Assembly (NCBI GenBank): GCA_002774875.1
Contig: PCYM01000002.1
Coordinates: forward strand, 14,781-78,780
Length of the DNA stretch: 64,000 nucleotides
Origin: Candidatus Uhrbacteria bacterium CG10_big_fil_rev_8_21_14_0_10_50_16
GTDB taxonomy: Bacteria; Patescibacteriota; Patescibacteriia; UBA9934; UBA11717
Direction: 5' to 3'
This document shows, one piece after another, positions 8,073 to 33,237 of the stretch. The translations under genes and the position numbers were made by a program. Within the stretch, counting starts at the first letter, position 1. Every line of letters starts with the position of its first letter. The notes under the pieces are model-generated. The model saw only the letters and a program-made list of their open reading frames with translations. It had not been told where the DNA came from and searched no databases.

Positions 8073-8255
8073 TGCCTACAATATAGCCTAAACTGTTACG
8101 AAAGTCACAGCATGGCATAAAAATCTACCAAAGCACTGACCCCGTTGTCAGCGAGCTTTGGTAGGTCGTATGTCGAAAGGCATGCGTTGGGAGTAATCCC
8201 ACGAGCTGGCAGCGGGTTTTGTGCTGTCCGCTCGAATAAATCCTACCAAAGCGCT

Positions 8256-24184: not shown

Positions 24185-25666
<1,482 letters not shown>

Positions 25667-25854
25667 AACGGAATTATACGTTGGTCGAGGTCTTGTACAT
25701 CAAGATCAGTCTCTCGAGACTAAAATCAAAGTCCGCGCAGTACCGCGGCAAGTAGACGTTGCAATCACGTAGCACACAATAAATAAACTCCCCATGTTGA
25801 GGCATGAGGAGTTTTTGTTTCTTTGACACGCTCAATAAGACACCGTAGGATAGA

Positions 25855-26538
25855 ATGACTATGCACCCCTGGGAACACGAATATCGACAACATCAACTAA
25901 TTCACGAGAATCTGGAACCGCTTGCCTGTGTCCGCGTTTTGTTGCGACAGCTCAAGAAACTGAAGTTTGATTTTGCCCATGCGCACGTCCTTGATTTAGG
26001 TACCGGCACTGGCAGACATGCACTTGCTTTTGCGGACAAGGGAGCAACCGCGATCGGTTACGACATCTCCCCTTCTGCTATCCAGATTGCAACGGCGAAT
26101 CAAACAGATCATCCAGGTACGGCCACCTTTTCTATTCGTGATATTGGTGAACCCTACCCTGTTCAGGACGCATCGATAGATCTTGTTCTCGATGTCACAA
26201 GCTCGCACGCCCTCATGCAGCCTCAGCGCTCTACCTACATCAATGAGGTGACACGTATACTCAAACCAGGCGGATATTTTTTTGTACGAACGTTTGCCAT
26301 GGAGGGTGATGCAAATGCCAAGCGGCTGATAAAAGAGTATCCAGGTCCAGAGCCAAGCACCTATATTCTCCCAGGGTTAAATCTTACGGAACGTGTTCTA
26401 ACAAAAAAGGAACTTATTGAATCATTTCCTCGGCTCACCCTTGTTACCCTTAAGCAAGTAACCGGGTACACTGTAGTTGCCAATCAACGCTATAAGCGCA
26501 ATTACTGGATCGCGCTCTTTCAAAAGCAGAGAGAATAG
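25855..26538 (+). CDS. Class I SAM-dependent methyltransferase
   Basis: Motif I LDLGTGTGRHA; TTGACA-N17-TAGGAT promoter just upstream; 227 aa. Confidence 0.7.
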   Translation: MTMHPWEHEYRQHQLIHENLEPLACVRVLLRQLKKLKFDFAHAHVLDLGTGTGRHALAFADKGATAIGYDISPSAIQIATANQTDHPGTATFSIRDIGEPYPVQDASIDLVLDVTSSHALMQPQRSTYINEVTRILKPGGYFFVRTFAMEGDANAKRLIKEYPGPEPSTYILPGLNLTERVLTKKELIESFPRLTLVTLKQVTGYTVVANQRYKRNYWIALFQKQRE

Positions 26539-26539
26539 G

Positions 26540-26578
26540 CAAACAAAAAACCGCCTCATAAAGGTGGTTTTTACTTAT
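26540..26578. terminator. Bidirectional terminator (ccgcct-cataa-aggtgg with A/T flanks)
   Basis: Stem-loop flanked by A6 and T5. Confidence 0.55.
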
Positions 26579-26582
26579 CTGG

Positions 26583-26657
26583 TGGTGCCGGGAGTCAGAA
26601 TTGAACTGACGACACGTGGCTCTTCAGGCCACTGCTCTACCACTGAGCTACCCCGGC
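26583..26657 (-). tRNA. tRNA-Phe (anticodon GAA)
   Basis: Reverse complement GCCGGGGTAGCTCAGTGGTAGAGCAGTGGCCTGAAGAGCCACGTGTCGTCAGTTCAATTCTGACTCCCGGCACCA; anticodon loop CTGAAGA. Confidence 0.85.
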
Positions 26658-26904
26658 GTTTTGGTTCCGCTTGTGTGTTCGCGATCTCTTTTTTCAGCCA
26701 TTCCGGTGCTCGACAACGTACATATTCGTACGTATTACTTTGCTCCTCATAGCTTTAAAAAGATCTCATCAAACACACTTCGCTCACATATGCACGACTA
26801 ACTTGCATCCGTACCATGATAGCCTTCAATGCACTTCGCTCGTATGGAACGCGCAAACAAATCCTGTAAAATACGTGATCAATCTCTATACACAAGAAAG
26901 TGAT

Positions 26905-26981
26905 TGGTGGGCGTGCCAAGAATCGAACTTGGGACCTCAGCATTATCAGTGCTGCGCTCTAACCATCTGAGCTACACGCCC
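26905..26981 (-). tRNA. tRNA-Ile (anticodon GAU)
   Basis: Reverse complement GGGCGTGTAGCTCAGATGGTTAGAGCGCAGCACTGATAATGCTGAGGTCCCAAGTTCGATTCTTGGCACGCCCACCA; anticodon loop CTGATAA. Confidence 0.85.
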
Positions 26982-28910: not shown

Positions 28911-28989
28911 CAACCCCTGCTATGCCCCGCTTCCCAATCCTGGGAGGCGGGGCATACTGTTTGACAAAAAAACGTGCAGTCTGTAGCGT

Positions 28990-29300
28990 ATAGGTAGTCC
29001 TTTTACAACAACAAAATCAATGACTCGAGAAGTAGTACTCTTATTACTCCCTGCAAAGCGAATCCGGGATGGTGGAAGCCGGATCATAGAATAAGAAGAA
29101 ATTGGACTCGATGAGATGACGCGTGCTTTTGTGCGTGTCCGGCATCCCCCGTAACCTTGGGATAATGTGTATCTACGGAGCACATGAAAGAGCCTTCTTT
29201 TTTTAGAAGGAATTGAGGTGGTACCGCGGTGGTGGAGAACCCCCGTCCTCAGACAACGTCTTGTTGTCTTTGGGCGGGGGTTTTTTGCCCCACGCAAGGA
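28990..29300 (+). promoter_or_regulatory. T-box riboswitch leader with intrinsic terminator
   Basis: Canonical T-box sequence AATTGAGGTGGTACCGCGGTG at ~29205-29225 (17/19 to AAUUAGGGUGGUACCGCGG); ~300-nt leader; terminator ccccc gtcc...gggcggggg + T6 at ~29242-29290 just before the SD of the downstream operon. Confidence 0.65.
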
Positions 29301-29307
29301 GTGTCTC

Positions 29308-30099
29308 ATGGATCTAACCCCTTTGTTCAAACATGCCTGGCGCGACCATGTCGGCATTGAGCGTGAATTTACGCTCAACCAGAATGAATGTGCCGTTCCC
29401 CTCTCACCTTCATTTCTTCGTTGCATGCATCATCTCCAACGTTCACTCGGACACAACCCAGATCGCTGGGCGCCAGAGCTCTCTGCGTGTCAGGTAGAGG
29501 ATCGTACTGTGCCTCATCGACGGCTCGCAACACTGCGCTCCGACCTGGCTAGTGCTCAGAACCGTGGAACACGCGTAGCTGCATCAATCGGGTGCAGGCT
29601 TGCGGCATCCGAAGTCGTTCCTCATGATGTCGTACGAGTTACGCATCCGAAGTACAGACATCTACAAGAACGTCTCCCGGAGAATGTTCTCATGGCTGCC
29701 TATCGAGTAGCGGGTGTCCATGTGCACATTGGATGTGGGTCTCTCCATGAAGCCGTGGAACGTCATGATCTGCTCTGCGATGCCCTCGTGGAGCTTGCTC
29801 GCATCTCTGACCACAGCAACGGTGAGCGGCTGCGACTGTACGGTGAGGTGTTAGCCTTCACCATGGGATCGAATGCGCCTAATACAATCGGAACCTCGCC
29901 ACATTACGAATCTCCAGAAGGCTGGCATGCACGCATGCGTGCGCTTGGAGTCGAGCAACTCGCCTCCTGTTACGACCTGGTTCGCATCACCAGTTACGGA
30001 ACTGTAGAGGTACGTATCTTCGGCATGACAGAGTCACCAGACGAGATCATTGATTGGGTAGAAAGGATTCATTCACTCGTCGGTATTACGACGATCTAA
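29308..30099 (+). CDS. Carboxylate-amine ligase, glutamate-cysteine ligase family 2 (YbdK-like)
   Basis: GCS2-like sequence over ~260 aa; AAGGAG SD 7 nt upstream of ATG 29308. Confidence 0.55.
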   Translation: MDLTPLFKHAWRDHVGIEREFTLNQNECAVPLSPSFLRCMHHLQRSLGHNPDRWAPELSACQVEDRTVPHRRLATLRSDLASAQNRGTRVAASIGCRLAASEVVPHDVVRVTHPKYRHLQERLPENVLMAAYRVAGVHVHIGCGSLHEAVERHDLLCDALVELARISDHSNGERLRLYGEVLAFTMGSNAPNTIGTSPHYESPEGWHARMRALGVEQLASCYDLVRITSYGTVEVRIFGMTESPDEIIDWVERIHSLVGITTI

Positions 30100-30137
30100 C
30101 GCCCCTGCCTGGGGGAAACCCCAGGCAGCTTACTTCT

Positions 30138-31004
30138 ATGCCTATTTCTTCTATTACAACACACACTGGCAGTTCACCTGGTCCCACGGTGACGATTCTT
30201 GGAGCGACCCATGGCGATGAACCAGGGGGTGTTCGAATTGTTGAGCGCCTTCGTAACTATCTTGATTCACAACTTTTTTATGGCACCGTCAACTTAGGAA
30301 TTGGAAATCCGGAGGCGTACAAACGACGATCTCGTTCTGCAGATCCCGATTCTAACACAAACATGAATCGCGTCTTTACAGCAAAGCGTCTTTTAGATCC
30401 GCAGCCGCGATCAAGAGATGTCCTTAGAGCTCAGGAGCTCGCACCACTTCTTGCAAAAACGGATTATCTTATAGATCTCCATGCGACAAGTCTTCCGTCA
30501 GAGCCGTTTCTCTGCTTTGGACTAAACCCTGAAAAACACTCCCCACTAACACGGTTCGCTCCAGTGCAACGTATTCTCATTGATTCAAATCATTTCATGG
30601 GTAAAGAGCTTGGAACAACGGATGCCTATGTGGATCGATCAGGTGGCATAGGTATTTGTTATGAAACAGGACAATGGTCCAATCTCTTACAACAGGATAA
30701 AGCTTACAAAGGCGTTCTGAATATGCTACAAGGAATCGGCGTGATCCCCAACGGTGCAGCCGTTACCGTACCTTCGCAGCAAATATATACAATCGTCGCG
30801 CAGGGTAAAGCAAAGAGTGCTACTTTCACCTTTGCACCGCGTGCTTCCCACAATTGGGCGCCTATTAAATGTCGTGAATATATTGGTTCACATGGCCACA
30901 GCACGGCCGAGCTCGCTACCCATAACGGCGTCATTCTGTTTCAAGTTCGTAAGGAACACATACGTCCAAATGGATTTCTCTATTCGATTGCTGCACCTGT
31001 GTAA
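30138..31004 (+). CDS. Succinylglutamate desuccinylase/aspartoacylase (AstE/AspA) family metallo-hydrolase
   Basis: Zinc-site motif ILGATHGDEPGG and second His region (IDLHAT). Confidence 0.6.
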   Translation: MPISSITTHTGSSPGPTVTILGATHGDEPGGVRIVERLRNYLDSQLFYGTVNLGIGNPEAYKRRSRSADPDSNTNMNRVFTAKRLLDPQPRSRDVLRAQELAPLLAKTDYLIDLHATSLPSEPFLCFGLNPEKHSPLTRFAPVQRILIDSNHFMGKELGTTDAYVDRSGGIGICYETGQWSNLLQQDKAYKGVLNMLQGIGVIPNGAAVTVPSQQIYTIVAQGKAKSATFTFAPRASHNWAPIKCREYIGSHGHSTAELATHNGVILFQVRKEHIRPNGFLYSIAAPV

Positions 31005-31042: not shown

Positions 31043-31690
31043 ATGATCGCCTCTCAACAATCCTACAAAGAAGTTCTACGGCGACTACGGAAGCGATACA
31101 AAAAATCGCCAACAGATTTTGTGCACTGGTCTAACCCATTGGAATTGATCATGGGAACCGTACTGTCTGCCCAATGTACCGACAAGCGCGTTAACCAAGT
31201 CACAAGGGTGCTCTTTAAAAGGTATAAGACAGCAGCGGCTTACGCACAGGCGGATCTTGTGAAACTCAAGCAGATTGTTCGATCTACGGGATTTTATAAT
31301 TCTAAGGCACGTTATCTTAAAGGGATCGGCACGATCCTTGTTCGCGATCATGGAGGAAACGTTCCCGCGGATTATGATGCGCTCATGCAGCTCCCCGGCG
31401 TCTCCAATAAGACGGCAAATCTCATTATGGCAAAAGCCTTTGGGATAAACGTAGGTGTTGCCGTCGACACACATGTAAAGCGCATTGCTCCACGCATCGG
31501 ATGGGTGACAAAAACAGAGAACACCGCCAAAATTGAACGAGAGCTCAACGCCATTGCCGACCCCAAAGACTATCTTGATCTCAACGAGTACTTAATTTTG
31601 CTTGGTCGTGATGTGTGCGGCCGCACACCAAACTGTGCCGCCTGCCCGCTTAATGATCTGTGCAAAACTGGAATCAAAAACACCCACTAG
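31043..31690 (+). CDS. nth: Endonuclease III (Nth), [4Fe-4S] DNA glycosylase/lyase
   Basis: HhH-GPD region LPGVSNKTANLIM, C-terminal Cys cluster CGRTPNCAACPLNDLC. Confidence 0.85.
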   Translation: MIASQQSYKEVLRRLRKRYKKSPTDFVHWSNPLELIMGTVLSAQCTDKRVNQVTRVLFKRYKTAAAYAQADLVKLKQIVRSTGFYNSKARYLKGIGTILVRDHGGNVPADYDALMQLPGVSNKTANLIMAKAFGINVGVAVDTHVKRIAPRIGWVTKTENTAKIERELNAIADPKDYLDLNEYLILLGRDVCGRTPNCAACPLNDLCKTGIKNTH

Positions 31691-31722: not shown

Positions 31723-33237
31723 CTACAACTGCCTAACCACTTTGATATTGGCACCAAGCTTACTGAACTTTTCGGCGATATCCTCGTATCCACGGTTAAT
31801 GGAATAGACGTTTCGCAACATCGATGTTCCCTTTGCCGACAACATAGCAATAAGAATTAACATCGCCGGACGCAGCGCCGGTGGCGTAGTAATGTCAGCG
31901 GCCGTAAAGGCGACCGGACCATCCACCTGCGCACGATGAATATCTAACAACGTCACCTTCCCTCCTACTTTGGTGAGCTCCGTGTAATAAATCGCGCGGT
32001 TCTCATACGGCCAGTCGTGGATGAGTGTACGTCCCTTTGCCTTACATGCAATCAGAACAAAGAAGGGAAGATTATCCATGTTAATCCCCGGGTATGGACG
32101 CGGCGCGATCTTATCGGTCAACGCGGTCAGAACCGAGGGCAACGTTTGAATATCCACCAATCGCGTCTGGCCATTATCCGCAAGGTACGACTTTTTGATC
32201 TCATACTTAAATCCCATATTGGAAAGATAGAGCAACTCCAGCTCAAGAAAATCAATGGGACAGCGTTTTAACGTGATAGACGAATCCGTAACAATCGCCG
32301 CCGCTAAAAATGACATAGCCTCAATAGGATCCTCGCTTGGCGCGTAGGTAACGTCCATATTGATCTCCGATTTTCCGTGGATGGTCAGCGTAGAGCTTCC
32401 AATTCCTTCGATTTTGACACCGAGTTTTTGCAAATAAAAGCACACATCCTGCACCATGTAGTTTGCTGACGCGTATTTGATTACGGTTATACCGTCTATT
32501 TTTGCCGCCGCCATCAGCACATTCTCCGTTACCGTGTCGCCCGCCTCCGACAAAATAATCTCAGCCGGTTTAGGGCGTTTTACCTCCACGTGATACACAC
32601 TTTCCTTGACCTGCACACGCAGCCCGAGTTTCTCTAACCCCTCCAAATGTGGGTGTACGCTGCGCGTTCCTAGTTTACAACCACCCGCATACGGGAGATC
32701 GAACGATTTTGTCCAATGCATGAGCGGCCCCATGAACATAATAATGCTCCTAGTTTTCGCACCCGCCTCTGCATCTAACCCAGCAAGATTAAGTTCTTTT
32801 GGCGGTGTAATTTTGAGATCATTCCCCTCTATCCACTTTACATTTACGCCGATACTCTCCAACACCTCAATAAGCCGATAGACTTCCTCAATACGAGGCA
32901 CATGCCTGAGTGTGGTGACACCATTATTGAGTAATGACGCACACAGCAAACCCACGGCAGCATTCTTAGATGTGCTCATGGTCACCGATCCTTTAAGCTT
33001 TTTGCCACCCACAATCTGAAAGTTGAGTGCACCTGTCCCAAGAGACACAATCTGATAGTTGAGCGCGCGAGAAATCCGAGAAAGCGTGTCCACACTCAGG
33101 TTTTGTTCTCCCCGTTCAATCCGCGCTACGGCACTTTGGCTTGTTTTGAGTTGACGCGCGAGGTCTGCCTGCGTCATGCCTTGCTGTTTACGTAGTTCCG
33201 TAATAAAGGCACCAATCTTTTTTTGTTCGGTTTGCAT
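31723..33237 (-). CDS. murA: UDP-N-acetylglucosamine 1-carboxyvinyltransferase MurA fused to an N-terminal XRE-type HTH domain
   Basis: Residues ~8-62 KIGAFITELRKQQGMTQADLARQLKTSQSAVARIERGEQNLSVDTLSRISRALN = HTH_XRE; from ~70 onward FQIVGGKKLKGSVTMSTSKNAAVGLL... aligns to MurA including catalytic Cys (GGCKLGTR); no stop between the two parts. Confidence 0.75.
   Translation of the reverse strand: MQTEQKKIGAFITELRKQQGMTQADLARQLKTSQSAVARIERGEQNLSVDTLSRISRALNYQIVSLGTGALNFQIVGGKKLKGSVTMSTSKNAAVGLLCASLLNNGVTTLRHVPRIEEVYRLIEVLESIGVNVKWIEGNDLKITPPKELNLAGLDAEAGAKTRSIIMFMGPLMHWTKSFDLPYAGGCKLGTRSVHPHLEGLEKLGLRVQVKESVYHVEVKRPKPAEIILSEAGDTVTENVLMAAAKIDGITVIKYASANYMVQDVCFYLQKLGVKIEGIGSSTLTIHGKSEINMDVTYAPSEDPIEAMSFLAAAIVTDSSITLKRCPIDFLELELLYLSNMGFKYEIKKSYLADNGQTRLVDIQTLPSVLTALTDKIAPRPYPGINMDNLPFFVLIACKAKGRTLIHDWPYENRAIYYTELTKVGGKVTLLDIHRAQVDGPVAFTAADITTPPALRPAMLILIAMLSAKGTSMLRNVYSINRGYEDIAEKFSKLGANIKVVRQL

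What the first reader, a model, noticed from the sequence alone, without database searches (positions are those of the whole stretch)
28990..31004. T-box riboswitch controlling a GCS2 carboxylate-amine ligase plus AstE/AspA-family deacylase operon
The leader contains AATTGAGGTGGTACCGCGGTG (17/19 to the T-box consensus), followed by a terminator whose 5' strand can alternatively pair with the T-box.

T-boxes normally gate aminoacyl-tRNA synthetase, amino-acid biosynthesis or transporter genes. A GCS2-type ligase paired with a succinylglutamate-desuccinylase-like zinc hydrolase under tRNA-charging control is unusual. It suggests an amino-acid- or peptide-related pathway sensed through an uncharged tRNA.

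The specifier codon could not be assigned by eye.
Basis: partly seen in the sequence, partly recalled or inferred. Interest (0 to 1): 0.65.

Follow-up and report, generated by a model that had tools for sequence, protein, structure and literature searches.

The report
Tryptophan T-box controlling unknown ligase–hydrolase pair
A genuine tRNA-sensing T-box riboswitch, which I assign to tryptophan, switches on a minimal glutamate-cysteine-ligase-like enzyme and an amide hydrolase of unknown function, and this pairing recurs across many lineages of the tiny, uncultured "candidate phyla radiation" bacteria, pointing to an undescribed tryptophan-starvation response.

Summary
Rfam RF00230 matches window 29011-29253 (+) at 96.8 bits (gathering score 93, E 5e-20). 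A strong terminator follows, and its 5' strand competes with the antiterminator. The two genes are a 263-aa GCS2/YbdK-fold ligase (29308-30099) and an AstE/AspA-family zinc hydrolase (30138-31004).

New here: the specifier is UGG (Trp), at 29103-29105. The window comes from a Candidatus Uhrbacteria-like CPR bacterium. The ligase belongs to a small family found almost only in CPR genomes. About 35 of 89 related loci have a T-box directly upstream of it, and UGG plus a purine is conserved in nearly all of 29 unique leaders. The bulge base that pairs with the tRNA discriminator is only ever C or U. That fits the G73 seen in all 10 CPR tRNA-Trp genes examined and excludes Leu, Ile (A73) and Gly (U73). 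trpS (22 loci) and tRNA-Trp genes (10 of 60 loci) cluster beside the cassette.

The gene after the ligase alternates between AstE-like, gamma-glutamyl cyclotransferase and Peptidase_C26 enzymes. This suggests the ligase makes a gamma-glutamyl amide that the partner cleaves. The physiological role (Trp capture or salvage?) is inferred, not shown. I found no prior description in the literature searched.

The parts
28961..28989 (+). Putative sigma-70-type promoter: -35 TTGACA (28961-28966), 17-nt spacer, weak -10 TAGCGT (28984-28989)
   Evidence: Read directly from the sequence. The consensus scan did not report it because the -10 matches only 3 of 6 positions. A TTGACA box at a similar distance upstream of Stem I recurs in most related leaders. 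This part is inferred, not shown.
29017..29117 (+). T-box Stem I (full-length type): K-turn (AUGA 29020-23 / GAUGAGA 29110-16), lower helix UCGAG 29025-29 with CUCGA 29107-11, specifier loop with AGUA / GAA S-turn motifs, AG bulge AGCGA 29057-61, distal loop 29066-80
   Evidence: cmscan alignment to RF00230. The centroid fold gives the 5-bp lower helix. The lower helix covaries across 29 leaders.
29103..29105 (+). Specifier codon UGG (Trp), followed by the conserved purine A29106
   Evidence: It occupies nucleotides 2-4 from the 3' end of the specifier bulge, which is the TBDB positional rule (PMC7778990). UGG plus a purine is conserved in nearly all of 29 unique leaders, while the flanking bases vary (AUUGGA, AUUGGG, GUUGGG, ACUGGG, GCUGGG).
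29118..29210 (+). Stem II (29118-29139), Stem IIA/B region (about 29140-29175) and Stem III (29193-29210)
   Evidence: cmscan alignment and folds.
29214..29251 (+). Antiterminator with the 7-nt T-box bulge UGGUACC (29219-29225). UGGU pairs with the GCCA 3' end of uncharged tRNA-Trp
   Evidence: Fold. Over 27 leaders 95.9% of cells pair and 5 of 9 pairs show compensatory changes, against about 50% pairing in slid controls. The variable base N is C in 15 and U in 13 unique leaders. CPR tRNA-Trp has G73 in 10 of 10 genes.
29231..29286 (+). Intrinsic terminator: core stem CCCCCGUCC 29240-48 with GGGCGGGGG 29272-80, then U6 29281-86. Mutually exclusive with the antiterminator
   Evidence: -53.7 kcal/mol, z -6.55. 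Equivalent terminators occur in 27 of 28 unique related leaders.
29308..30099 (+). Minimal (263 aa) GCS2/YbdK-fold carboxylate-amine ligase, member of a small family found almost only in CPR genomes
   Evidence: Pfam GCS2 26.4 bits. TIGR02050 49.7 bits, far below its cutoff of 176. A PDB profile search finds only YbdK (1R8G, 1TT4) at E about 1e-7. AF2 model pLDDT 96. Foldseek top hit is YbdK (TM 0.71), followed by GCL, GshF and glutamine synthetases. Invariant residues include E18, E20, E57, E64, H138, H140, E234 and R236.
30105..30128 (+). GC-rich 10-bp intercistronic hairpin between the two genes (role unknown)
   Evidence: Terminator-like scan. The U tail is weak and the feature was not analysed further.
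30138..31004 (+). AstE/AspA-family (M14-like) zinc amidohydrolase, 288 aa
   Evidence: Pfam AstE_AspA_cat 65.6 bits. No NCBIfam equivalog cutoff is reached. The HGDE / DLH / ETG motifs align with 3CDX. A homologue lies directly downstream of the ligase in 32 loci.
31043..31690 (+). Endonuclease III (nth), 38 nt downstream on the same strand with no terminator detected between; possibly co-transcribed
   Evidence: TIGR01083 200 bits. Linked to the cassette in only 7 loci of the Uhrbacteria clade. No terminator-like site between 31004 and 31043.

Best explanation
This is a transcription-attenuating T-box riboswitch specific for tRNA-Trp, in a Candidatus Uhrbacteria-like (CPR/Patescibacteria) genome. 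It controls a two-gene cassette, possibly with nth read through behind it.

Mechanism of the switch. The leader is transcribed from a promoter near 28961. Stem I presents the specifier UGG (29103-29105) to the CCA anticodon of tRNA-Trp. If the tRNA is uncharged, its 3' end G73-C-C-A pairs with UGGU (29219-29222) in the 7-nt bulge and stabilises the antiterminator (29214-29251), so RNA polymerase reads into the operon. If the tRNA is charged, the terminator (29231-29286) forms instead. The RNA anatomy, its conservation and the tRNA assignment are shown here. Function in vivo is inferred from the well-established T-box mechanism.

The cargo. It is a minimal ATP-dependent carboxylate-amine ligase with the glutamine-synthetase / gamma-glutamylcysteine-ligase fold, plus an amide hydrolase. 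In other CPR lineages the gene in the hydrolase position is a gamma-glutamyl(amine) cyclotransferase or a Peptidase_C26 gamma-glutamyl hydrolase. I therefore infer that the ligase makes a gamma-glutamyl amide and the partner cleaves it. Given the exclusive Trp control, the amine is most simply tryptophan itself or a tryptophan-derived amine.

My best guess at the role is ATP-driven capture or buffering of scarce tryptophan (metabolic trapping followed by release to TrpRS) in organisms that cannot make it. This last step is speculative.
For: T-box identity: Rfam hit above threshold; terminator and antiterminator folds; antiterminator covariation; the leader is conserved upstream of orthologues at 60% and 50% protein identity.

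Trp assignment:
- UGG plus a purine is invariant at the 3' end of the specifier bulge in nearly all of 29 unique leaders, while the lower helix covaries freely.
- The CUGGG variants remove AUU as a shared frame.
- The bulge base N is C in 15 and U in 13 leaders.
- CPR tRNA-Trp has G73 in 10 of 10 genes, whereas tRNA-Leu has A73 (4 of 4), tRNA-Ile A73 and tRNA-Gly U73.
- A U opposite G73 is a documented trait of Trp T-boxes (46% of them in TBDB, PMC7778990).

Independent genomic links: TrpRS lies within 3 genes in 22 of 89 loci, and 10 of the 49 tRNA genes found in 60 loci are tRNA-Trp, where about 1 would be expected.

Cargo chemistry:
- GS/GCL fold, with all top structural hits being enzymes that activate the glutamate gamma-carboxylate.
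- Metal and ATP ligand positions are invariant.
- Partners at the +1 position are AstE-like (32 loci), GGACT/AIG2 (5 loci) and GATase1/Peptidase_C26 (L071; L084 at 161 bits).
- There is precedent for a co-encoded GS-like gamma-glutamyl ligase and a hydrolase that reverses it: AtdA1/AtdA2 and NpaA1/NpaA2 (PMC11335346).
Against: The Rfam score clears the gathering threshold by only 3.8 bits. No tRNA-Trp gene or trpS lies in the window, so the cognate tRNA of this particular genome was not seen. With U in the bulge, the window's own leader could also pair with an A73 tRNA, so excluding Leu and Ile rests on the related leaders.

A ligase co-expressed with a hydrolase of its own product is a futile cycle on paper. 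No substrate was identified. AstE/AspA enzymes characterised so far cleave N-alpha-acyl Asp/Glu or N-acetyl-DABA, not gamma-glutamyl amides. More than half of the family's loci have no T-box, and one clade sits in clusters with several ligase genes. The ligase is not tryptophan-poor (4 W in 263 aa), which is a little odd for a Trp-starvation protein.
Confidence: 0.8

Rival explanations
1. The T-box is real but responds to tRNA-Leu (specifier UUG, or CUG in other lineages) or tRNA-Ile (AUU), not tRNA-Trp.
For: The window's loop reads GAA-AUU-GG-A, so AUU, UUG and UGG are all possible frames. cmscan itself places AUU/UUG at the model's codon columns. In the short-Stem-I leaders, if the G after UGG closes the helix as a G.U pair, the positional rule would read UUG or CUG, and both are Leu codons. 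The window's bulge base U would pair with A73. A tRNA-Ile(GAU) gene lies 2 kb upstream.
Against: Fifteen of 28 unique leaders have C in UGGN, and C cannot pair with the A73 found in all CPR tRNA-Leu and tRNA-Ile genes examined. AUU is absent from the GUUGGG and CUGGG leaders. Only UGG is common to all. The loci are enriched for trpS and tRNA-Trp, not leuS, ileS or their tRNAs.
Confidence: 0.04
2. The cassette is a defence against an inhibitor of tryptophan charging. A Trp analogue or TrpRS inhibitor raises uncharged tRNA-Trp, the T-box fires, and the ligase inactivates the compound by gamma-glutamylation while the hydrolase keeps the conjugate in check, as in the aniline/naphthylamine systems.
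For: T-boxes respond to any cause of uncharged tRNA, not only starvation. GS-like ligases gamma-glutamylate aromatic amines, with a co-encoded hydrolase as a safety valve (PMC11335346). An exporter-type ABC gene lies near the ligase in 6 loci.
Against: Conservation across very diverse CPR lineages and habitats (groundwater, ocean, sediment) argues for a housekeeping role and against resistance to one particular compound. There is no oxygenase or other follow-on detoxification gene. Exporter linkage is rare.
Confidence: 0.08
3. The ligase and hydrolase act on a protein or peptide, not a free metabolite. This would be reversible gamma-glutamyl-type tagging, by analogy with PafA/Dop pupylation or glutamylation/deglutamylation, that remodels translation or proteolysis when tRNA-Trp is uncharged.
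For: PafA and Dop belong to the same carboxylate-amine ligase superfamily (PMC2588565 and PMC7947786, listed). From general knowledge, M14-like enzymes include protein deglutamylases and GGACT acts on gamma-glutamyl-epsilon-lysine. One family member also hits Pfam Amidoligase_2 (P0016).
Against: No conserved small tag protein or proteasome gene was seen beside the cassette. The closest structural relative is YbdK, not PafA. Peptidase_C26 and GGACT partners are most simply small-molecule enzymes.
Confidence: 0.07
4. The leader is a decayed or chance T-box-like sequence without regulatory function.
For: The score is only 3.8 bits above Rfam's gathering threshold. The cargo is not a classical T-box target.
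Against: E 4.9e-20. All domains are present and a very stable competing terminator follows. The leader is conserved, with compensatory changes, upstream of orthologues across deep CPR lineages.
Confidence: 0.01

Closest known systems
Class I (Bacillus-type) transcriptional T-box riboswitches, Rfam RF00230; specifically Trp T-boxes such as those of Firmicute trpS, trp operons, rtpA and trpXYZ
   Same: Full-length Stem I with K-turn, S-turn specifier loop, AG bulge and distal loop. Stem II, IIA/B and III are present. There is a 7-nt UGGN bulge in an antiterminator that competes with an intrinsic terminator, a UGG specifier, and U or C opposite the G73 discriminator, as reported for Trp T-boxes (PMC7778990).
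   Different: The host is a CPR bacterium. I found no paper linking T-boxes to CPR/Patescibacteria. The cargo is not an aaRS, a biosynthetic operon, a transporter or a known regulator. trpS in related loci has no T-box of its own.
Truncated-Stem-I ('class II') T-boxes of Actinobacteria (e.g. the ileS type), which are translational
   Same: Most CPR relatives of this leader have a drastically shortened Stem I lacking the distal platform, while Stem II and IIA/B are retained.
   Different: The CPR short-Stem-I leaders end in intrinsic terminators (27 of 28), so they are transcriptional. The window's own leader keeps the long Stem I.
YbdK / GCS2 carboxylate-amine ligases (PDB 1R8G, 1TT4) and gamma-glutamylcysteine ligases
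   Same: Same fold (Foldseek TM 0.71 to YbdK). The GIERE, HxH and GTVEVR motifs align.
   Different: About 110 residues shorter (263 vs 372 aa). Only 15-17% identity. It scores far below the YbdK-family cutoff (49.7 vs 176.4 bits). It forms a separate small clade found almost only in CPR genomes (177 clusters at E<=1e-30 among 1.84 billion representatives). The substrate is unknown.
GS-like gamma-glutamyl ligase plus GAT-like hydrolase pairs (AtdA1/AtdA2 for aniline, NpaA1/NpaA2 for 1-naphthylamine; also PuuA/PuuD)
   Same: An ATP-dependent glutamate-amine ligase is co-encoded with an enzyme that hydrolyses the gamma-glutamyl amide it forms (PMC11335346). Some CPR cassettes use a GATase1/Peptidase_C26 partner.
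   Different: Those ligases are full-size type-I GS homologues in catabolic clusters that also contain oxygenases or dehydrogenases. Here there are only two genes, a different ligase branch (GCS2), and control by tRNA-Trp.
AstE/AspA family (succinylglutamate desuccinylase, aspartoacylase, DoeB)
   Same: The catalytic-domain Pfam hit is above cutoff, and the Zn-binding H-x-x-E...H and catalytic E are conserved.
   Different: It is below every equivalog cutoff, so it is not an orthologue of any characterised member. It is paired with a ligase, not placed in arginine, ectoine or N-acetylaspartate pathways.

Membership tests
T-box leader (RF00230) | Covariance-model score at or above Rfam's gathering score | tested here: met
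   96.8 bits vs 93, E 4.9e-20, full model 1-219. The margin is narrow. Orthologous leaders score 96.7 (L001) and 88.4 (L004).
T-box leader (RF00230) | Stem I with K-turn and a specifier loop that presents a codon followed by a purine just 5' of the lower helix | tested here: met
   AUGA / GAUGAGA K-turn, AGUA / GAA S-turn motifs, UGG-A at 29103-29106 abutting helix CUCGA. The A/G alternation at the purine and the covarying lower helix are seen across leaders.
T-box leader (RF00230) | Conserved T-box sequence forming an antiterminator with a 7-nt bulge containing UGGN | tested here: met
   UGAGG[UGGUACC]GCGG...CCGUCCUCA. 95.9% pairing and 5 of 9 pairs with compensatory changes over 27 leaders.
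T-box leader (RF00230) | Mutually exclusive expression platform (terminator or sequestrator) | tested here: met
   Terminator 29231-29286, -53.7 kcal/mol, z -6.55, shares CCCCCGUCC with the antiterminator. Present in 27 of 28 related leaders.
T-box leader (RF00230) | A host tRNA whose anticodon matches the specifier and whose discriminator pairs with UGGN | tested here: inconclusive
   No tRNA-Trp gene lies in this window. In related CPR loci tRNA-Trp(CCA) has G73 in 10 of 10 genes, which is compatible with N = U or C. This was not verified for this genome.
T-box leader (RF00230) | Antitermination dependent on uncharged tRNA | not testable with these tools
   Requires in vitro transcription or a reporter assay.
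GCS2 / YbdK carboxylate-amine ligases | Pfam PF04107 at or above the gathering score | tested here: met
   26.4 bits vs 21, but only residues 52-155 align.
GCS2 / YbdK carboxylate-amine ligases | NCBIfam TIGR02050 (YbdK family) or the GCL equivalog cutoffs | tested here: not met
   49.7 vs 176.4 bits. All GCL and YbdK equivalogs are far below cutoff. It is a distant relative, not a YbdK or GshA orthologue.
GCS2 / YbdK carboxylate-amine ligases | GS/GCL catalytic fold with conserved metal and ATP ligands | tested here: met
   AF2 pLDDT 96. Foldseek top hit YbdK, TM 0.71, prob 1.00. Invariant E18, E20, E57, E64, H138, H140, E234 and R236 align with the YbdK motifs. Assigning them as ligands is an inference.
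GCS2 / YbdK carboxylate-amine ligases | Full-length architecture of about 370 aa | tested here: not met
   263 aa. Family members are 245-290 aa. TM normalised to YbdK is only 0.54.
GCS2 / YbdK carboxylate-amine ligases | ATP-dependent ligation of glutamate to an amine | not testable with these tools
   Needs an enzyme assay. Supported only indirectly, by gamma-glutamyl-specific partner enzymes.
AstE/AspA family | Pfam PF24827 catalytic domain at or above cutoff, with the Zn-binding H-x-x-E...H and catalytic Glu | tested here: met
   65.6 bits vs 25. HGDE, DLH and ETG align with 3CDX.
AstE/AspA family | Orthology to a characterised member (AstE, aspartoacylase, DoeB) | tested here: not met
   44.9 vs 180, 19.8 vs 170 and 26.3 vs 402.7 bits.

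The most novel reading that the evidence does not exclude
The small GCS2-like ligase and its interchangeable gamma-glutamyl-cleaving partner form a previously unrecognised, ATP-driven tryptophan acquisition or salvage system. One possibility is gamma-glutamyl trapping of host-derived Trp, a soluble analogue of the gamma-glutamyl cycle. This system, and not trpS or a transporter, would be the main output of tRNA-Trp sensing in CPR bacteria, which cannot make tryptophan. The same regulon also documents transcriptional T-boxes with ultrashort Stem I, a combination that current models under-detect.
Probability: 0.3. Interest if true: 0.8.

Novelty: new variant of a known kind. Interest (0 to 1): 0.62.

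Why it matters
T-box specificity works as a free functional label. It says that an uncharacterised enzyme pair found almost only in CPR genomes belongs to tryptophan homeostasis, in organisms whose metabolism is mostly inferred from missing genes. The evidence is consistent across dozens of lineages: the specifier, the discriminator pairing, and the linkage to trpS and tRNA-Trp. That makes a concrete biochemical hypothesis testable with two small soluble proteins (Glu + Trp or a Trp-like amine + ATP, then cleavage).

There are two practical points as well. Rfam's T-box model scores most CPR T-boxes of this regulon well below its threshold, so riboswitch censuses probably undercount them. And truncated-Stem-I T-boxes are not restricted to translational control.

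Tried and rejected
1. Assigning the specifier from the window alone. Three frames fit (AUU, UUG, UGG), and cmscan's own alignment leaves 'ac' as an insertion, which would shift the frame. I resolved this only by comparative analysis.
2. I seriously considered a Leu reading (UUG/CUG) for the short-Stem-I class. I rejected it because half the leaders have C opposite the discriminator and CPR tRNA-Leu is A73. Gly frames (GGA/GGG) were rejected because tRNA-Gly is U73.
3. My automatic helix finder mis-assigned 8 of 29 leaders (L004, L005, L035, L049, L057, L068, L070, L073, L075 region). I read these by eye. L066 and L035 remain structurally unclear: in L035 UGG appears to sit in a terminal loop.
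4. Literature searches for T-box + CPR/Patescibacteria, and for gamma-glutamyl-tryptophan + carboxylate-amine ligase, returned nothing relevant.
5. I looked for trpS, GGCT, GATase1, M20 or extra GCS2 genes in the window and found none. The 'CM-MT' cluster member at 25855-26538 is only a methyltransferase with no chorismate mutase domain.
6. The neighbouring HTH + EPSP_synthase gene first looked like an aromatic amino-acid link. Pfam PF00275 also covers MurA-type enzymes and the gene is on the opposite strand, so I did not use it as evidence.
7. The word-indexed protein search found only 19 relatives, which understates the family. The genome scan (80 loci, capped) and the profile search (177-471 clusters) give the better picture.
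8. I did not run a second structure prediction or fold search for the hydrolase.
Full report
1. CHECK OF THE OBSERVATION

Rfam's T-box model RF00230 matches 29011-29253 on the + strand over its full length, at 96.8 bits. The gathering score is 93 and the E-value is 4.9e-20. The core GGTGGNACCRCG occurs once in the window, where 0.05 matches are expected by chance.

cmscan aligns all the usual domains:
- Stem I with K-turn, specifier loop, AG bulge (AGCGA) and distal loop (GGUGGAA);
- Stem II, the IIA/B region and Stem III;
- the antiterminator.

The segment 29192-29290 folds into Stem III plus a long terminator hairpin (-53.7 kcal/mol, z = -6.55, none of 200 shuffles as stable), followed by U6. 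Without the terminator's 3' strand, the RNA forms the textbook antiterminator UGAGG / [UGGUACC] / GCGG...CCGU / CCUCA. The terminator's 5' strand reuses the antiterminator's 3' strand.

The one caveat is that the Rfam margin is small.

2. THE GENES

The mechanical ORF 29218-30099 begins inside the leader. The plausible start is ATG 29308, 8 nt after AAGGAG.

The first product is 263 aa.
- It hits Pfam GCS2 weakly (26.4 bits, cutoff 21), over residues 52-155 only.
- It hits the YbdK family model TIGR02050 at 49.7 bits, far below the cutoff of 176.

The second product (30138-31004, 288 aa) hits AstE_AspA_cat at 65.6 bits, but reaches no NCBIfam equivalog cutoff. Its HGDE, DLH and ETG motifs align with the Zn and catalytic residues of PDB 3CDX.

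nth follows 38 nt later on the same strand, with no terminator-like site between.

Neither protein is an orthologue of a characterised enzyme.

3. ORGANISM AND FAMILY

Most records are named as Patescibacteria/CPR lineages: Uhrbacteria, Parcubacteria, Paceibacterota, Yanofskybacteria, Liptonbacteria and others. The rest are mostly uncultured MAGs labelled Gammaproteobacteria or simply 'bacterium', and I did not check those labels. The closest locus (60% identity) is Candidatus Uhrbacteria UBA11717.

An exhaustive profile search gave only 177 clusters at E <= 1e-30, and 471 at E <= 1e-10, among 1.84 billion representatives. Nearly all are 245-290 aa long.

The family has sharp invariant motifs: GIERE, ELSACQVEDRT, RVAGxHxHxG, GDHSNGERLxLY and HGTVEVRxFG.

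The AlphaFold model is confident (pLDDT 96). Its best structural matches are YbdK (TM 0.71 normalised to the query), then plant GCL, GshF and glutamine synthetases. A PDB sequence-profile search finds only YbdK-type entries, at E about 1e-7.

The protein is therefore a minimal version of the GS/GCL-fold carboxylate-amine ligases, about 110 residues shorter than YbdK.

4. THE T-BOX IS A CONSERVED PARTNER OF THIS LIGASE

The same leader precedes the orthologues at 60% (L001-3, L011; 96.7 bits) and 50% identity (L004-5; 88.4 bits).

Across all 89 loci with a ligase ORF, 33 have the T-box core 100-350 nt upstream of the ligase. A covariance model of the antiterminator (R1) added L069 and L087. It found no T-box in the other locus types.

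Over 27 leaders the antiterminator pairs in 95.9% of cells, and 5 of 9 pairs show compensatory changes. Pairing is 42-60% in slid controls.

Twenty-seven of 28 unique leaders have a hairpin plus U-run that overlaps the antiterminator's 3' strand, so all of these are transcriptional attenuators.

The Uhrbacteria-type leaders (window, L001, L004, L015, L017, L023) keep a long Stem I. Most of the others have an ultrashort Stem I of the form GGUCCC-hairpin-GGG(A/G)UUGGGCC. Rfam scores those at only 30-58 bits, so routine annotation would miss them.

On a neighbour-joining tree, T-box-linked ligases occupy most of the tree, including two deep branches. Loci of the type GCS2-like / GATase1 / ligase / 445-aa GCS2-like form one derived clade without T-boxes.

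5. SPECIFIER ASSIGNMENT

In the window, the 3' side of the specifier loop reads GAA-A-U-U-G-G-A and is followed by CUCGA, which pairs with UCGAG 29025-29029. TBDB's positional rule places the specifier at nucleotides 2-4 from the 3' end of the bulge, with the last nucleotide being the conserved purine (PMC7778990). That gives UGG at 29103-29105, followed by A29106.

Comparative data:
- The position after GG alternates between A and G, while GAAAUUGG is invariant in the close relatives.
- Across 29 unique leaders the lower helix covaries freely. Examples are UCGAG/CUCGA, GCAGG/CCUGU, UCCCAGG/CCUGGGA, UUCAAAG/CUUUGAA and CCGGU/GCCGG.
- UGG plus a purine is retained throughout. The bases 5' of it vary: AU, GU, AC, GC.

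I took one alternative seriously. In the short class, the G after UGG could close the helix by pairing with a conserved U. The rule would then read UUG or CUG, and both are Leu codons.

The acceptor-end interaction settles this. The variable base of UGGN is C in 15 and U in 13 unique leaders, and never a purine. In CPR loci:
- tRNA-Trp(CCA) has G73 in 10 of 10 genes;
- tRNA-Leu has A73 in 4 of 4;
- tRNA-Ile has A73 in both cleanly delimited genes;
- tRNA-Gly has U73 in 5 of 5.

C can pair only with G73, so Leu, Ile and Gly are excluded for half the leaders. U.G wobble covers the rest. For example, L057 has UGGU next to a G73 tRNA-Trp. This U/C split opposite G73 is a documented peculiarity of Trp T-boxes: 46% of them have U (PMC7778990).

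6. INDEPENDENT LINKS TO TRYPTOPHAN

Of the 49 tRNA genes found in 60 scanned loci, 10 are tRNA-Trp, and they lie within about 2 kb of the ligase. Roughly one would be expected by chance.

Clustering of neighbouring ORFs shows a TrpRS gene (Pfam tRNA-synt_1b, 243 bits) within three genes of the ligase in 22 loci. Its orientation and position vary. In L079 it is co-directional downstream: T-box, ligase, GGACT, trpS.

trpS itself has no T-box in the loci scanned with Rfam or with R1. Conventional aaRS T-boxes do exist in CPR: L074 has a second T-box before a class II D/K/N synthetase.

These counts are not phylogenetically independent. They do come from many different arrangements.

7. WHAT THE CARGO PROBABLY DOES (INFERENCE)

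The gene directly after the ligase is one of the following:
- an AstE/AspA-like hydrolase, in 32 loci;
- a GGACT/AIG2 gamma-glutamyl(amine) cyclotransferase, in 5 loci (55 bits);
- a class-I GATase / Peptidase_C26 enzyme (L071; L084 at 161 bits).

In a few further loci an M20 peptidase gene lies next to the ligase, on the opposite strand.

GGACT and C26 enzymes are specific for gamma-glutamyl amides. All significant structural neighbours of the ligase activate the glutamate gamma-carboxylate. The simplest reading is that the ligase forms a gamma-glutamyl amide which the partner cleaves, and that this cleaving step has been taken over by unrelated enzymes in different lineages.

A co-encoded GS-like ligase with a hydrolase that reverses it has precedent in AtdA1/AtdA2 and NpaA1/NpaA2 (PMC11335346).

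Every T-box found in front of this family reads UGG, so the amine is most simply tryptophan or a tryptophan-derived amine.

Why a starvation signal should induce both halves of what looks like a futile cycle is unexplained. My preferred guess is ATP-driven trapping and buffering of scarce, externally supplied Trp in organisms that are generally thought to lack amino-acid biosynthesis. I give this specific role about 0.25-0.3. The rivals are detoxification of an inhibitor of Trp charging, protein or peptide tagging, and protective-group chemistry with a missing middle step.

8. COMPARISON WITH KNOWN SYSTEMS, AND NOVELTY

The RNA is a bona fide member of the T-box family and a Trp T-box by every sequence criterion I could test. 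What is unusual:
- the host clade, since I found no paper linking T-boxes with CPR;
- the cargo, an uncharacterised minimal GCS2-fold ligase plus an amide hydrolase, where one would expect an aaRS, biosynthetic, transporter or regulator gene;
- among its relatives, the combination of an ultrashort Stem I with an intrinsic terminator. TBDB notes that transcriptional T-boxes generally have the longer Stem I.

I rate this as a new variant of a known kind. The switch itself is ordinary. The regulon it defines is new and gives a precise, testable functional lead.

9. LIMITS

- No tRNA-Trp or trpS gene is present in the window.
- The promoter is only a sequence match: TTGACA, 17 nt, TAGCGT.
- The substrate is not identified.
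- L035 and L066 have unclear Stem I structures.
- The absence of literature is limited to the open-access library searched.

Noticed in passing
window 8085-8202 (+): Match to the LOOT RNA family (RF03000), 78.1 bits against a gathering score of 46.4, E 5e-13. This is a structured RNA of unknown function.
   Followed up: no
window 24185-26981: The 16S rRNA gene (24185-25665, about 1480 nt, with several helices shortened relative to the model) is followed by a SAM-methyltransferase ORF (25855-26538) and by tRNA-Phe and tRNA-Ile on the opposite strand, not by 23S. The rRNA genes appear to be unlinked. The same layout is seen in L001 and L004.
   Followed up: partly
window 30105-30128 (+): A 10-bp, GC-rich hairpin (CTGCCTGGGG-GAAA-CCCCAGGCAG) sits between the ligase stop and the hydrolase start, with only a weak U tail. 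It could be an mRNA-stability element or a partial terminator that sets the ratio of the two enzymes.
   Followed up: no
window 31723-33237 (-): A fusion of an N-terminal HTH_3 DNA-binding domain with an EPSP-synthase/MurA-fold domain (148.6 bits). It is conserved beside the cassette in the Uhrbacteria clade (L001, L003, L004, L005).
   Followed up: partly
L052, L062, L063, L067, L073 and others (genes just upstream of the T-box): A recurrent CPR gene pair: trpS followed by a chorismate-mutase-type-II domain fused to a SAM methyltransferase (CM_2 42 bits plus Methyltransf_25). This is an odd partner for TrpRS in organisms thought to lack the shikimate pathway.
   Followed up: partly
L024, L027, L033, L041, L044 and about 10 more loci: A second context for the same small ligase: a four-gene cluster of a 308-aa protein whose GIEVE motif resembles the ligase's by eye (no Pfam hit), a class-I GATase, the small ligase, and a 445-aa GCS2-like protein. 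It has no T-box and forms one derived clade. It looks like a multi-ligase biosynthetic module or a hetero-oligomer.
   Followed up: partly
L074 7347-7411 (+): A second T-box (32.5 bits with model R1) precedes a class II aaRS of the Asp/Lys/Asn type. CPR genomes therefore also carry conventional aaRS T-boxes. Its specifier was not determined.
   Followed up: partly
L050, L055, L060, L063, L071, L074 (leaders upstream of the ligase): T-boxes with an ultrashort Stem I but clear intrinsic terminators. Rfam RF00230 scores them 30-58 bits, well under its gathering score of 93, so standard annotation will miss most CPR T-boxes of this kind.
   Followed up: yes
L050, L056, L067, L070, L076, L077: An exporter-type ABC protein (fused membrane and ATPase domains by eye, about 590 aa; not scanned against Pfam) lies within a few genes of the ligase in six loci. 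This could hint that the ligase product or its substrate crosses the membrane.
   Followed up: no
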